A DNA stretch of 48,204 nt from Rotaria socialis (GCA_905331295.1 CAJNYD010000029.1:1-48204); one strand, 5' to 3'. Shown: positions 888 through 46,303, counted from the stretch's first letter. Numbers and translations: made by a program. The notes: generated by a model from the sequence alone, not told the origin.

Positions 888-936
888 GGGTGTGGGTGTG
901 GGTGTTATCATGTCTCTGACAGGCACACACACACCC
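888..936. repeat. Inward-facing telomere-like repeat pair with an 18-nt spacer
   Basis: gggtgtgggtgtgggtgt-tatcatgtctctgacagg-cacacacacaccc, preceded by cttga. It is the reverse complement of 7133-7186. Confidence 0.9.
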
Positions 937-943
937 TTCGTTT

Positions 944-1476
944 TCATGTATTTTCAGTAACTGTTTTCCTTTTTCGATATTCTTCAGCCAAAGACATATT
1001 TTCTGTTGCTTCATGAACTTTAGCTGTTGACTCTAGTATATCTTGCACAATTTCATCATATTGATTGTCATTCGTTAGAAATTTCTCATATATATTCAAT
1101 GATTGTTGTAGATTTGCCATGGCTTTAGTGAAGTGATTCATTTGACATTCAACAATGCCGAGTTTTCTGTATAACTGGCACAGATGTACGTGTTCATCAA
1201 CAGTTCGGTGAGCTTCATCTTTTTCATCAAGACTATGGATACCCAGTCGATAGTATTTCGATGCTGATTTTTGCTTCTTAAGATGTTTGTAGGTGTCACC
1301 TAGCGATTGGCAAATCGATGCCAATGATTTCTTTCGATGGCGCTGGATTTTAAGTGCTTTCTTGAAATGTTTCAGTGCTGCTTGATAATCACTGCTCAGA
1401 CCATAGCATGTTCCTATTTGATCATGAGAGTCATAAAGTTCATGATCATTTTTTGATAGAATTTCCGTTTGAATAT
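944..1476 (-). pseudogene. 5'-truncated duplicate of the last ~177 codons of the ART-TPR gene at 7194
   Basis: Colinear with 7194-7726 at a constant offset of 6250, with about 20 substitutions counted by eye. Homology stops at 1476, where (GGGTGT)n begins. The ORF-track N-terminus (HTHTH...) is translated repeat and MITE sequence. Confidence 0.92.
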
Positions 1477-41046: not shown

Positions 41047-43811
41047 ATTCGCCCCATTTCTATAAGAGTATTGAAAAAAAAATATTAAGTTTTGTTTTCT
41101 TTAAATCATTCAAATGATTAGCAAAATATAGTAATAAATCGTATAGAAATGAATATTATTTTAATCTTGTTTACCGAAAGCTACTTTTTCTAAAATATTT
41201 GAAGATTCTATTACAATTTTGTTTTTCAATGAATATAGGATTTTTTCCTCTTCTCATCGAAAAAGGATAGAAATGATTCGTTATAAAAAAGATGAGTGTA
41301 TTTATTTTCCTATGTAGCTTCAAGATCGTTTTCTAAATGTGAAAACCATAAATCCGCTACTGAATTTTCGAAAAATTCACTTCTGAATACTTGAAACCTA
41401 AAACGAAACACTTAATTTATAACCGCAAGAGGGAAAATGTTTCAACTGTGTTAATGATTTTTTCAAAAAGGAAAAATAACTTTTTCTTTTTATTGTTTTC
41501 GCGCATTTCAATCTCAATTAGAATTCTTGTGTCAGTTGTGACATATGTATTACATTTTCGAGGACCCGTCGTGCACATCGCTTGGATTTTATTGTCAGCT
41601 TGTGACTGTTAATCGAAGTAGCAGTATTCATTGCGCGATTCTATCGTCTATTCTTGTCTACTTGCACGTAAAATAATTTCGTATAGAAGGGAGAAGTATG
41701 AAAGCGTAACATAGGAAACAGAATGAACATCGAGTTACTTCAACAGCTTTCCTTCGAAGCACTTTGGTATTTTTGTTGTTATGCATAGATGTTCATGCGT
41801 GTAAAAATCAATGATGTAGTAAGCATCAAAAAGAAGTTACTAGGTGTATGTTATTTGACGAAGAACGATGAAGTTTATTTATTCTTTATACTTGACGACG
41901 AAACGGAGAGGACGTATAAGAACAGAAAGAAAAAGAAAAAGAAGATGAGCGATGGCAAGATGAGGTTGAAACAAAATGTAAGAAAAAAGCAGCAGCATGT
42001 TTTCATACATATCATGCTCATTTGTTTTATCAAAGAAATCTAAGTATATTTTACGTGGAGCAAATTTATAAGTCACTCCTCGATTGTTTTAATAAGTGGT
42101 GAATGAAAACAAAACAAAGCAAAATATAATAGATTAAGACTCAATCTAATGGTGAATAAGTTAGCTCGAAAGCACTTTCAAGCTAGCATTGCTTGTTTTC
42201 TGATTAGAATTTGATGTATAATATTAGACATTTGGCGCTAAGTATTTCAAAACATTTCATGAAGCCTGGAAATCGAAAAGACTACCAAAAAGTATAAAAG
42301 CAGTAGTGATAAGATAATTCAATGCTTCATGATTTCAATAGAAGTATCCGAGTAGATCATAACAAACTCTATGTGATGTAGACCACTATTAATGTTTTTA
42401 TGAGGGGTGTGTAAAGACTGAGCTTTGAAAATTCTCTCCATTACTACGAATTCAATGAAAAACTACAAAAATAAATTTCCATTGAATCGGGATTCATGCG
42501 AAGATCTTACACATCTCTCTCCCACAATACCCTTCAACTATTTTTACATGTACAATCTAAGTCCCTGAAACAACACATTAGCTGTACTTCCTAATCACCT
42601 TTCAGATCACTGTTACTTCACTAAATAATCGACCAAAGACCATTCGAAATACGTCAAACTGATGAAGTGGAAATGAATCATCAACAATGATCCCGATGAG
42701 AACTATGAACGATAAAAATAAAATAAAATCACCATAAATCTATAACCAAAAGAAATCGTCACCGCTTAACCTCGACATAAATAGATTACTTCACTGAAAA
42801 ATATTGTCACGATGATACAAAGAAATTCAAATGACTAAGACTTTTCACAAAAATCGTCTGAATCTTTTGGTTTTCTAAATTAGTCTCTAAGCTTTCCTTC
42901 TCACTTCCAGATAATATTCTCTCGCTAAATTATTTTCCAGATATCTAAACAGATTTTTTTGCAACAATAGAAATCCTTTGTAATGCCGCAAGAAACTGAG
43001 AGAATATACCTTCTGCTGATTCTTCGAGCAACTGTGCAAATGATAACTAATATGTAGTGCTTGAGAAAATGGATACGTGAAGAATACATGTCCGGGAGCA
43101 GAAGTATTATGACAGTTCTAATGATACTACCTAGAAATTGAAGTGGATATCTAGCAGGTACGAATCCTCAATTCCACGAGGTGTTGAGAGTAGATGTCAT
43201 CTAGGTATTTAACTCTTTCTTTAGATAATATCAGTAGAACTGTCGAAGGTTTTTCTTTTCTTGATATATTTCGTGCATCTAGAATACAGATAAAATGAGA
43301 GTCTAGTTTTTTCCGGAGGATTTTTTTCGAAACTGAATAATCACAGTTCTCTCATTGTTAATGTTTCACTTCATAGAACTTTGTTGAACTAAGATGGAAT
43401 ATTGGCGGAGCAGTGATTGTAATTATTTCTGTCAGTTTTCCGATCAGATATTGATCCTAAATGCTGGCCATTCCTTTACCTTCTCACGTAGGAACTTTTC
43501 AAATGCTATTACCTATCAGGTGTATGAAAATGCTTTTCGATAGTATCGATAGGCATCGGAAGAATTCTCAAGCTGTCGTTTTGAGCAGTCTCCATTCGAC
43601 ACTACTGACTTTCTCAGAACAAAGAACATCCATTTAGTAAGAAATAGTTTAAGTTCTTAGCACACGACACTGAAATTAAGTTATCGCCTGTAATAGTTTC
43701 AGTAAATAAGTCTGATTGAAGTTTTGTTAGTATCATCGATTTTTTCTTTTAAAAAAATCATTCGACATCAGTTTTTCCCATTTCACTTAATAACGGACAT
43801 GAATACACAAT

Positions 43812-46303
43812 AGCTCACTATGGGCAGACTTGAAGCATAGTTCCTTTAGGGGTGTGGTTGTGTGTAAATTGCTTTGGTACACGAACACCCACATCCACAC
43901 CCTCAAGATAGTGACCAAATTTATCTTGTTCCAGAACATGATAATGCATTTTCAAAACCAAGCAATGTTTCATTCGTTATCAAATCTGATCATCCAATCG
44001 ATATATCGTCTTCGTCATTGAGTTTCATTTCAAAATTAATTGATATTGAAGAGGATGACGTTGATTTGCAATTAGATAAAGTCGATGGGAAAATACCTCG
44101 ACAGCAAGATTCACGATTGTATGAAATAATGCTTTTTTTCTATTGAAATTTATTTAGAGTTTTCTTTAGATGTCATCATAATCGGCATGGCAAATGTCTT
44201 CATTGTATACCAATAGAACCATACGACGAAGAATATTTGAAAAATCATAGTCCACCTATTAAACATATGTCGTTTCAAGCTTACATTAGAAAATTACAAA
44301 ATGAAGCATCTGTTGAAAAGTAATAAATATTGTTTTTTGATAAAGTTGACCTTTGATATTTCTCTTTTGTTTGGTAGAAATACATTTTCTAGCCTCGAAA
44401 ATATAAGTTGCTCGATCAAAGAACAATGTTTGACAGGTCATCCACCATGGCCAAAAGATATAATTTTAGCCTATATAAGAGAAAACTCTCATCAGGCATA
44501 TTTATATAGGTGTTTGTTCAACATGTCAACCGAATCAGATGACACTTATGAGTCAGGTAGAGAGTTTCTGAACAAAAACAAAATACAAACATTAACATTT
44601 GATAACCATAACCATGAGGTCTTTGATCAGCCAAAAAAATCTGTTAAAATCTCATTCAATGCTTTGAATTTGTTTTTTGTTTATAGACACATCGTCATGT
44701 TGATAACATCACGTTTGAAAATGGAAATATGGTCAATCGTTTTCTTGAATATTGGCGTTCATCAGGCCATCAGCGCATTGGTTTTCTCTATGGTCGATAT
44801 GAAATCTACGATGGTGTTCCGCTTGGTGTTCGAGCTGTTGTTGCTGCTATCTATGAACCACCACAAGTAAAAACTTAGCTTTGAATTTCATTTTGTTTTT
44901 AAAAGTAGAATTCTTTGATATAGGAAACATCAAAAGATAGCGCTCAATTGATTTTCCCTGATCCACAGGAGGCTACTATTGATAAACTAGCCTATCGTCT
45001 TGGTATTCGTCGTATTGGATGGATATTTACGGATCCTATTTCGAATGATAAAAGATCTGGTACTGGGCCTGTTATTCATCATCGAGGAAGTGCGGTATGA
45101 CAAAATAAAATTGGCATAGTTCAAGTTTCTTCAAACATAATTTTTCGAATAGAATACATTGTTTTTAACTGCTCAAGAATGTATTATGGTCGGTTGGTTT
45201 CAAAATAAAAATTTGAATAAGTGTAAATACTCATCCGATGGATATTTTGGCTCGAAATTTGTTACTGTTGTGGTGATCGGGAATGCAACTGGACAAATTC
45301 AATTTGAAGGATATCAAGTATCGAATCAATGTATGGCTTTAGTTAGATCAGAAATTTTACTACCGACGTTTGATGCACCTGAATTAGGTTATATTAAAGA
45401 AACAAGTCCTGAACAATATGTTCCTGATGTTTATTTTAAAGTAAGCATTAAACGAAATAAGGATTCAATAAAGATTTAGTTTCTAATAGGAAAAAGATTC
45501 TTACAATAATGAAATCATGAAAATTGGGCGTCCATTGCCTTTAGAATATTTAATTCTTGATGTTCCAACAGGTTTTCCAACAGCAAATCATCAAATGAAA
45601 TCAACATTTAATGATACATGCTCAATCATGAAAACACCATTCTGCATTGAAAAGCGAACGCGAACTGATGAATTACAAGTAACACGATTATATGTCAGTA
45701 AAACTTAGTAAATAGATTTCCTGTATTCAATAGGATATGGATACTTTAGCTTTATATTTACAAAAATTCGCAGAAATTGATGTTAAACGAGCAAATTCAC
45801 TCACATATAAAACAACAGATATTTTAGCTGCTCTTCATCTATTGCGATATTTGGTAGCTAATGGTATTTTTCAGTTTTCTATGGTAAGACAAAAGAGAAA
45901 TTCGAAAGGTCTCGTCGACTGTTACAATAGCATTTTTTTTTAATGATAGGTATATATTCTATAAAATAACACAATATTTAGGATCAAATCGATCCATTAT
46001 TTGATGCATTACGAAACAATGATCTAAATGGAGTTACAACATGGATCGAAAGTGAGGTATGGCAAACATTACTTCAACTTCTTCAAATTGAACGTACGTA
46101 TACATATTCTCTAATCGTAAAACGATTTTATTTGAAAAATAATTACTGTAGTCCCAGGCTTATCATCATCTATGAAGCAATTAACTCCTACGGTTACCAA
46201 TGAATAGTCATCAAATTGGACATGTTCAGAATGTACTTTTCTCAATGATAATTCCAATCAAACGTGTGATATGTGTTCGTTAGGTAGAAATGCGGCCTCT
46301 TAA
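43812..46303 (+). pseudogene. NPLOC4: Multi-exon NPL4 (p97/Cdc48 cofactor) copy with several lesions
   Basis: [73 protein letters not shown]...AIYEPPQ, YFGSKFVTVVV, GYQVSNQCMALV and a C-terminal NZF finger WTCSECTFLN...CDMC. Lesions: a 71-bp insertion at 43842, a donor reading AT near 44458, and TAG at 46205-46207. The 5' exons were not found. Confidence 0.92.
43842..43907. mobile_element. 66-bp telomere-repeat foldback element, copy B, inserted in NPL4
   Basis: Flanked by direct repeats ATAGT (43837-43841, 43908-43912). Removing 71 nt restores the frame LKHSDQIYLVP. Confidence 0.8.

What the first reader, a model, noticed from the sequence alone, without database searches (positions are those of the whole stretch)
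888..43907. A family of tiny telomere-repeat foldbacks sits at rearrangement junctions across the window
Seen: about ten inward-facing pairs, (GGGTGT)n then a 10-30-nt spacer then (ACACCC)n, at 888, 3113, 3422, 7133, 13220, 22573, 27326, 28876, 34230, 40981 and 43842. Most spacers are unrelated to each other, and I found no clear outward-facing pair. Several pairs lie where homology between duplicates ends. Known: TGTGGG (Adineta vaga) and TGAGGG (Philodina roseola) are bdelloid telomeric repeats, and G-tract facing C-tract is the geometry of an end-to-end telomere fusion. Inference: either both ends of a double-strand break receive a few telomerase repeats and are rejoined with filler DNA, or this is a minimal mobile element using telomeric repeats as TIRs. 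I do not know of a description of either in bdelloids.
Basis: partly seen in the sequence, partly recalled or inferred. Interest (0 to 1): 0.88.

Follow-up and report, generated by a model that had tools for sequence, protein, structure and literature searches.

The report
Head-to-head telomere scars in rotifer DNA
In this bdelloid rotifer DNA, about ten short pairs of telomere repeats face each other at seams between unrelated or broken pieces, likely scars of DNA breaks whose two ends were capped from an RNA template and then joined; a shared 7-letter tag on them would give away part of the rotifer telomerase RNA.

Summary
Observation confirmed, arms more degenerate than stated: 10 inward G-tract/spacer/C-tract pairs, 0 outward, 0.28 expected. 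The window is Rotaria. The same structure occurs in 21 AT-rich metagenome loci, with 4 further inward and 0 outward pairs beside the search seeds. Four tract ends sit where a known donor sequence is cut off, two in mid-exon. New here: a non-telomeric tag, ATCTYGA, lies just outside 10 of 84 tract ends (0 of 520 background) and stops sharply after 7 letters; at the NPL4 break it was added, not inherited. No target-site duplications, no shared variants between arms, no conserved body: not a MITE or a snap-back. Best reading (0.62): both ends of a break are extended from an RNA reading roughly CACACCC-UCAAGAU, probably the telomerase RNA, then joined through a short biased filler. Closest known: the rare head-to-head TERC-ITS of vertebrates; here it is the usual form. 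No clean empty site found; the RNA is predicted, not found. This scan noted the same scars in other bdelloid genomes.

The parts
882..936 (.). Foldback 1: tag TCTTGA (882-887), G arm 888-905, spacer 906-923, C arm 924-936; core is an inverted copy of the 7133 core
   Evidence: bridged by a contig of run X1; a relative's contig matches 184-884 and then goes on differently
937..1476 (-). Copied 3' fragment of the ART-TPR gene, 519 of 540 identical to 7187-7726, bounded by foldback 1 and a G tract
1476..1507 (+). Unpaired G tract added in mid-exon where the copy stops matching its donor (7727 onward)
3114..3174 (.). Foldback 2, decayed arms
   Evidence: bridged in X1 and X7
3422..3487 (.). Foldback 3, decayed arms
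   Evidence: bridged in X1, X7 and by a contig of the relative X10 with 55 other letters and 10 gaps over 3103-3768
5918..5930 (+). G tract at the start of a 135-nt repeat (89% to 6918-7052), followed by a possible decayed C arm
6907..6928 (+). G tract at the start of the second copy of that repeat
7104..7132 (+). Weak G tract plus a third, truncated copy of that repeat; it stops where foldback 4 begins
7133..7186 (.). Foldback 4, 7 nt past the stop codon of the ART-TPR gene (7194-10571, minus strand)
   Evidence: bridged in X1, X3, X7
13145..13219 (+). 75-nt exact copy of 13920-13994 (kinase gene start) that ends at foldback 5; abuts a single-N scaffold join
13220..13274 (.). Foldback 5
22570..22612 (.). 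Foldback 6, weak G arm; C arm ends in a 4-of-7 tag remnant; 9-nt inverted repeat outside the arms
26956..26989 (+). Unpaired G tract starting TGAGGG
27326..27413 (.). Foldback 7
28876..28966 (.). Foldback 8, long variant C arm ending CCCTCA
30559..30591 (+). Unpaired G tract starting TTGAGGG
34230..34304 (.). Foldback 9
34306..34374 (.). Probable tandem foldback: very weak G arm, C arm 34330-34374
   Evidence: G arm below threshold, read by eye
40980..41048 (.). Foldback 10 with full tag (TCAAGAT at 41042-41048); spacer, C arm and tag shared with foldback 11, flanks unrelated
43850..43909 (.). Foldback 11 with full tag (43903-43909), joined to the middle of an NPL4 exon; a relative's contig matches the left flank up to 43848 and then goes on differently
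43908..46714 (+). NPL4 copy lacking its first 68 codons (starts at residue 69 of the intact homolog P0001) and with a premature stop near 46205

Best explanation
These inward pairs are likely repair scars: each end of a broken chromosome was probably extended with a few GGGTGT repeats copied from an RNA template, most likely the telomerase RNA, and two such capped ends were then probably joined nose to nose through a short filler. Shown: strict inward geometry; tracts begin where a donor sequence is cut off, also in mid-exon; the two arms are independent; a fixed tag (ATCTYGA) precedes many tracts and was added at the NPL4 break. Inferred: the template reads about 5'-CACACCC-UCAAGAU-3'; a raw end pairs by 1-3 nt anywhere in the UCAAGAU stretch, so that the first round copies part of the tag, later rounds give GGGTGT with occasional TGAGGG and 4- or 7-nt slips; two G tails cannot pair, so one is extended by a 6-46 nt, strand-biased filler (slipped read-through on a purine-rich RNA stretch or biased polymerase fill) before end joining; finished scars can later serve as local donors, which copies or flips a spacer (885/7133, 40980/43850).
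For: 10 inward, 0 outward, null 0.28; 4 inward, 0 outward beside the seeds in 41 kb of other loci. Donor known and cut off at the tract in 4 places: 1476, 7133, 13219, 43908; a relative's contigs stop matching at 884 and 43848, just before the added letters (the letters beyond were not shown). Tag of >=6 letters at 10 of 84 ends vs 0 of 520 other GGG sites; 12 full hits in 8 sequences with random letters further out; intact NPL4 (P0001) has ordinary codons where the window has the tag. TGAGGG is the commonest substitution in the arms, 12 vs 2 for the transition, as the template predicts. Arms share no variants (p=0.68); no target duplication. Precedent: head-to-head TERC-ITS with template-adjacent RNA sequence (PMC8537989, passages); telomere repeats at deletion breakpoints in A. 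vaga (PMC13564844, passages); TGTGGG as bdelloid repeat.
Against: No bdelloid telomerase RNA was found or could be searched for; the template is a prediction. No empty site with both flanks joined was seen in two read-laying runs, whose tables were cut and covered 17.5 of 48 kb. The joining step is not shown. Spacers have only weak likeness to each other, mostly compositional, and their strand bias is not significant in the window alone (n=8, p=0.19-0.30). 46 of 84 ends have no tag letter under strict anchoring. The 13219 donor comparison abuts a scaffold join. One outward joint exists in X10. The metagenome set was seeded on inward pairs and picked by eye (21 of 51); only 2 were checked for taxon. 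Foldbacks 10 and 11 are not bridged by any listed contig.
Confidence: 0.62

Rival explanations
1. Self-propagating bridge: most foldbacks are copied from older ones. A G-tailed end invades an existing foldback (or its transcript), copies spacer and C arm, and so gains a C-rich tail that pairs with the second G-tailed end. The unit spreads as an enzyme-free repair adaptor.
For: Two of the window's spacers are copies of neighbours 3-6 kb away, one inverted, one between unrelated flanks and ending exactly at the tag; a third shared pair in L028. It explains how two G tails join. Spacers are more alike than random genomic pieces (4.92 vs 4.41 +/- 0.11); TTCAT occurs in 9 of 31, above all 80 runs of each null (motif chosen afterwards).
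Against: All other spacers are unique, also those with near-perfect arms from the same organism (table 5c); Markov models of the spacers reproduce most of the likeness (4.66-4.71 +/- 0.13); no full-length consensus aligns.
Confidence: 0.15
2. The template is not the telomerase RNA but the 3' end of Athena/Terminon retroelement RNAs, which carry (ACACCC)n or (TCACCC)n beside a hammerhead; their reverse transcriptase caps breaks and leaves tag, repeats and a short piece of element.
For: Terminon 3' ends expose such repeats and 5'-truncated copies are capped by telomeric repeats (PMC6431247, passages); Athena pieces occur at breakpoints. A sharp limit at 7 letters would fit an RNA 3' end; many element families would give many spacers.
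Against: Terminon chains give tracts of one polarity, not inward pairs; no RT domain in 17 of 29 ORFs scanned, no Rfam match at gathering score; what follows tagged tracts differs at each locus; multi-register repeat addition is telomerase-like.
Confidence: 0.12
3. A miniature inverted-repeat transposon whose TIRs are telomere-like.
For: Inverted arms; one unit found twice between unrelated flanks; a conserved terminal tag.
Against: No target duplication excess (4 of 29 with >=5 nt vs 11% by chance); arms do not covary; tag on one end only or absent; no conserved body; checked flanks are unrelated pieces.
Confidence: 0.04
4. Selected hairpins or protein-binding sites that mark gene boundaries (terminator, insulator or cassette site).
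For: Most lie between genes, one 7 nt past a stop codon; some fold stably (-24 kcal/mol at 7133); 3422 persists in a relative.
Against: Arms decay without compensation; several cut genes in mid-exon (1476, 43908, L051); folding of others is weak (-7 to -11 kcal/mol).
Confidence: 0.04
5. GT-rich microsatellite palindromes or assembly artefacts.
For: Such palindromes occur among the 30 metagenome loci set aside; the window has scaffold joins.
Against: Spacers are not self-complementary (0.32 vs 0.63 in the other loci); four pairs are bridged by contigs of public runs, two of them (3114/3422 together, and 7133) in runs of two studies; the tag is not a simple repeat.
Confidence: 0.02

Closest known systems
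Head-to-head TERC-ITS of vertebrates (Xenopus locus of type C and two mouse-lemur loci; PMC8537989, passages read; s-ITS in PMC7215372, passages read)
   Same: Short telomeric tracts put in at double-strand breaks; two tracts head to head, explained by telomerase acting on both ends; a piece from just downstream of the template beside the repeats; in-register microhomology; random filler.
   Different: There 3 of 41 TERC-ITS loci per 30 genomes are head to head and empty orthologous sites exist; here inward pairs are the usual form, one per about 5 kb in this window, with a spacer between the arms, and the checked ones join unrelated pieces. The RNA is known there and only predicted here.
Neotelomeres and their scars in Adineta vaga (PMC13564844, passages read; fig. 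S25 not seen)
   Same: Bdelloid telomeric repeats at deletion breakpoints, thought to be transient caps.
   Different: Single caps on free ends; the passages read do not describe paired, re-joined tracts, a tag or a spacer.
Athena/Terminon chains (PMC6431247, PMC8557442, passages read; the 2007 and 2017 primary papers were not held)
   Same: Short telomeric stretches inside subtelomeric DNA, (ACACCC)n/(TCACCC)n in an RNA, host genes caught between units.
   Different: One polarity, RT-coding bodies and hammerheads; none detected here.
Telomere fusions: human 2q13 and inward fusions or neotelomere-then-fusion events in cancer genomes (PMC11293586, passages read)
   Same: G tract facing C tract; neotelomere formed at an internal break and then fused.
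   Different: Hundreds to thousands of bases of repeats, natural chromosome ends, rare events; here arms of 12-110 nt (one decayed arm of 236) at internal breaks, heritable and dense.

Membership tests
TERC-ITS (head-to-head type) | Short telomeric tract starts at a break in a known ancestral sequence | tested here: met
   4 ends with known donor: 1476, 7133, 13219, 43908
TERC-ITS (head-to-head type) | Two tracts head to head, made independently | tested here: met
   10 inward, 0 outward; no shared variants, p=0.68
TERC-ITS (head-to-head type) | Adjacent sequence matches the species' telomerase RNA | not testable with these tools
   A common added tag is shown, but no bdelloid telomerase RNA is at hand; no genome is held, Rfam gives nothing
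TERC-ITS (head-to-head type) | Empty orthologous site with both flanks joined | tested here: inconclusive
   No joint that skips a foldback with unique flanks among the rows shown (tables cut); relative's contigs diverge at 884 and 43848
TERC-ITS (head-to-head type) | Letters at the break in register with the template | tested here: inconclusive
   1-3 letters fit at 885, 1476, 7133, 43908; 13219 ambiguous; n too small
MITE / TIR transposon | Target-site duplication | tested here: not met
   Mean longest shared word 3.52 vs 3.43 in mismatched flanks, n=29
MITE / TIR transposon | Matching terminal repeats with the same conserved end on both sides | tested here: not met
   Tag on both ends in 0 of 30, on one end in 10; arms do not covary
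MITE / TIR transposon | Conserved internal sequence among copies | tested here: not met
   Only three local pairs share a spacer among 38 compared; no consensus
Athena/Terminon | Penelope-like RT or element body next to the repeats | tested here: not met
   No RT family in 17 of 29 ORFs scanned; 12 shorter or overlapping ORFs were not scanned
Athena/Terminon | Hammerhead next to (ACACCC)n | tested here: inconclusive
   No Rfam match at gathering score; minimal hammerheads may fall below it
Athena/Terminon | Telomeric tracts in one polarity along a chain | tested here: not met
   Alternating G and C tracts
Fusion of natural chromosome ends (2q13 type) | Long arrays flanked by former subtelomeres on both sides | tested here: not met
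   Arms of 12-56 nt in the window, flanks include exon interiors

The most novel reading that the evidence does not exclude
Bdelloids run a routine telomerase-first end-joining pathway: breaks are capped, and capped ends are bridged by copying a foldback or a foldback-shaped RNA, so the scars are at once the footprint and the adaptor of repair. This would let any two capped pieces, foreign DNA included, be stitched together without homology, would build the patchwork of defence genes and gene fragments seen here, and would make the scars a self-spreading, enzyme-free element riding on telomerase. The tag spells the template flank of the unidentified rotifer telomerase RNA.
Probability: 0.2. 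Interest if true: 0.88.

Novelty: new variant of a known kind. Interest (0 to 1): 0.66.

Why it matters
How bdelloids mend many breaks, reshuffle subtelomeres and take up foreign genes is an open question. A dense, datable scar that marks each capped-and-joined break would let one map past breaks genome-wide and test whether foreign genes entered at such joins. The tag gives an exact probe (CACACCC followed by TCAAGAT or TCGAGAT, single unit, conserved, transcribed) for the rotifer telomerase RNA; the survey of animal telomerase RNAs that I searched does not mention rotifers (PMC8480181). It would also show telomerase-capped ends being fused as a matter of course, the reverse of what capping normally does.

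Tried and rejected
No whole genome is held, so no genome-wide count. A 5-nt target duplication and a GT-AG intron reading of foldback 11 inside NPL4: rejected, the intact homolog differs upstream of the break, the left flank has in-frame stops, and a relative continues the left flank differently. Target duplications and flanking inverted repeats in general: no excess. Snap-back origin of one arm from the other: no shared variants. Spacers copied from nearby DNA: longest local match no longer than for shuffled spacers, except the known pairs. One conserved spacer: no alignment. Preferred stopping phase at the inner end: weak (GGGTGTG 20, GGGTGT 17 of 68), not used. Viral collection: 1 inward, 0 outward, a phage hairpin. 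Tag-plus-repeat pattern in prokaryote and viral collections: 121 matches, none followed by a C tract, taken as chance control. Homologs for the piece left of foldback 7: none. No RNA holder listed; X13 gave only diverged NPL4 pieces. X2 hardly covers 40300-44700; a hole proves nothing. A search for a purine-preferring terminal transferase in bdelloids listed nothing relevant. Nine literature searches listed no paper on inward telomeric pairs in bdelloids; the two primary Athena/Terminon papers were not held and figs S25 (PMC13564844) and S10 (PMC8494291) were not seen, so a description there is not excluded.
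Full report
Source. The window is 32.6% GC with two scaffold joins. Its NPL4 copy matches proteins named for Rotaria magnacalcarata (93%) and Rotaria socialis (95% over the query, several exons 97-100%), so it is bdelloid rotifer DNA of the genus Rotaria. 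It is a patchwork of two ART-TPR genes, F-box/LRR genes, an AIG1 GTPase, a kinase, gene fragments and inverted-repeat elements (17 of 29 ORFs scanned). TGTGGG is the A. vaga telomeric repeat, is stated to be supported in other rotifers, and TGAGGG is that of P. roseola (PMC7943196, passages and supplement 10; PMC8494291, passages). The telomere repeat of this species was not determined here.

Observation. There are 16 G tracts and 12 C tracts at score 9 or more; ten form inward pairs and none an outward pair. Random placement gives 0.28 pairs on average and at most 3 in 3000 trials; shuffled windows give none; the result holds at five thresholds. Arms are degenerate: no pair has two perfect units on both sides. 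Contigs of public runs bridge the pairs at 885, 3114, 3422 and 7133 with at most four other letters; the last three are bridged in runs of two studies, one of which may be the window's own source.

Elsewhere. An exact pattern found 50 metagenome stretches and 1 viral one. I kept 21 of these 51 as bdelloid-like by low GC and by the look of their ORFs; two were checked and gave rotifer relatives, the rest are unverified. The 30 set aside include bacterial-looking perfect hairpins and GT palindromes; their spacers are on average self-complementary (0.63 vs 0.32). Beside the seeds, the 21 loci (41 kb) hold 4 more inward pairs and no outward pair. Contigs of the window's organism show further pairs with other spacers (table 5c), and one outward joint appears in the related run X10, perhaps from tandem foldbacks like 34230-34374.

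The tracts start at breaks. At 1476 a copy of the ART-TPR 3' end (519 of 540 identical) leaves its donor in mid-exon and turns into repeats; at 7133 a third copy of the 5918/6907 repeat stops and the G arm begins; at 13219 a 75-nt copy of the kinase start ends at a foldback (next to a scaffold join, so weaker); at 43908 the NPL4 copy begins at residue 69 of the intact homolog, in mid-exon, directly after the C arm and tag. Contigs of a relative match the left flanks up to 884 and 43848 and then go on differently (the further letters were not displayed). In L051 a tract abuts the inside of an LRR exon. The ends of the F-box inverted duplicate and of 1-220 are not near tracts, so not every duplicate ends at one. 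No site was found where both flanks are joined without a foldback.

On the G strand, ATCTYGA precedes the first GGG. Six or seven of its letters match at 10 of 84 tract ends against 0 of 520 other GGG sites (15 of 84 reach five letters with looser anchoring). Twelve full hits lie in eight sequences, and the six letters further out are mixed. Shorter pieces (TTGA, TGA, A) are common, as variable priming would give. At NPL4 the intact protein has ordinary codons at that place, so at least CTTGA was added. The tag lies at either end regardless of spacer polarity and was not seen at both ends (0 of 30; 0.8 expected if independent). 14 of 16 tagged tracts are followed by a C tract within 110 nt, most of them known pairs, against 0 of 121 chance matches in prokaryote and viral collections. 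Inside the arms, units are GGGTGT 117, GGGT 16, GGGTGA 8, GGGGTGT 5; T-to-A at the TGAGGG position outnumbers the transition 12 to 2. An RNA reading CACACCC-UCAAGAU accounts for tag, TGAGGG units and slips by different pairing registers; this is my inference. Slippage alone could explain the length variants but not the tag.

What it is not. Longest shared word between the two flanks: 3.52 vs 3.43 for mismatched flanks, so no target duplication (n=29 of 35). Two arms of a pair are no more alike than arms of different pairs (p=0.68, n=34), so neither snap-back copying nor selection for pairing. No RT domain, no Rfam family.

Spacers. Lengths are 6-46 nt, mostly 13-20. They are not copied from nearby DNA. 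One strand is purine-rich: asymmetry 0.44 vs 0.23 in the metagenome loci (p<0.001) but 0.25-0.30 vs 0.22-0.24 in the window alone (n=8, not significant). Earlier notes of this scan called the linkers copied-looking (unchecked AI notes), so I tested it: spacers are more alike than genomic pieces or letter shuffles, TCTCTT and TTCAT recur, but Markov models of their own composition give most of the effect and no consensus aligns. Three local pairs do share a spacer: 885/7133 (inverted relative to the gene), 40980/43850 (unrelated flanks, ending exactly at the tag) and one in L028. A G tail invading a neighbouring foldback, with a switch between its arms, would give both window cases; simple inversion or duplication would too.

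Mechanism, committed. Break; each 3' end pairs by a few letters with the RNA and is extended by two to many repeats (likely telomerase); one end gains a short biased filler; the ends are joined, often to the wrong partner, which leaves G arm, spacer, C arm. Unpaired tracts are ends that were capped and joined to an uncapped piece. Geometry, break positions, independence of arms and addition of the tag are shown; the enzyme, the RNA, the origin of the filler and the joining step are inferred. Confidence 0.62; bridge copying as the main route 0.15; Athena/Terminon RNA as template 0.12.

Comparison. It works like the head-to-head TERC-ITS of vertebrates, where 3 of 41 loci have two facing tracts, one of them beside a piece from just downstream of the template, and a second telomerase on the other end was proposed (PMC8537989, passages; PMC7215372, passages). 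Membership cannot be granted without the RNA and an empty site. In A. vaga, telomeric repeats and Athena pieces were reported at deletion breakpoints (PMC13564844, passages). Healing sites reflect the template in Plasmodium (PMC5550746, passages). Nine searches listed no description of inward pairs in bdelloids; two primary Athena/Terminon papers and some supplements could not be seen. Within this scan the scars were already noted: 38 findings in at least 16 genomes hold my search words, of which I saw 8; these are not independent evidence. Verdict: real, a new variant of a known kind, interest 0.66.

Noticed in passing
window 1526-2344: Element with 83-nt terminal inverted repeats starting CACTG, holding a 144-nt palindrome (1597-1740) and a second inverted pair (1766-1856/2162-2250); very high contig depth in all four runs, so probably nested MITEs. 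It begins 18 nt after the G tract at 1476-1507.
   Followed up: no
window 39104-39816, 18654-19005, 14290-14379: A 200-nt inverted-repeat pair (88%) and two imperfect palindromes, probably further non-autonomous elements.
   Followed up: no
window 15740-17819 and 23398-25365; 1-220 and 15730-15949: Inverted pair of F-box/LRR genes at 71% identity, and a 99% inverted copy of one gene end at the window start; none of these ends is at a telomeric tract.
   Followed up: partly
window 7194-10571 (-) and 32262-34022 (+): Two genes with an ADP-ribosyltransferase domain followed by TPR repeats, each with a foldback shortly past its stop codon (7 nt and about 200 nt).
   Followed up: partly
window 29346-30413 (+) and 40400-40894 (-): An AIG1-family GTPase in one open frame, and an ORF that looks lysozyme-like by eye but has no Pfam hit; both lie between telomeric tracts.
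   Followed up: no
window 22553-22622: A perfect 9-nt inverted repeat lies just outside the arms of the weak foldback 6; flanking inverted repeats are not enriched overall.
   Followed up: partly
L029, L034, L035, L038, L043: These loci carry the tag with C in place of the second T (ATCTCGA), while the window and L009, L017, L021, L033, L049, L050 have T: perhaps species or gene-copy variants of the template RNA.
   Followed up: partly
L050 about 1305-1335 (-): Full tag followed by a single GGGTGTG and no C arm: a one-round product, or a candidate for the template locus itself.
   Followed up: no
L006/L010, L018/L026, L019/L027, L001: GC-rich, apparently bacterial or phage contigs with near-perfect hairpins whose stems read GGGTGTGGGTGT; look-alikes, probably terminators or REP-like repeats, unrelated to the rotifer scars.
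   Followed up: no
window 40300-44700: A run with the same species label that holds 85% of the words of 700-10600 hardly covers this stretch, while a relative covers 41732-43848 at about 96%; could be a presence/absence difference or a filter.
   Followed up: no
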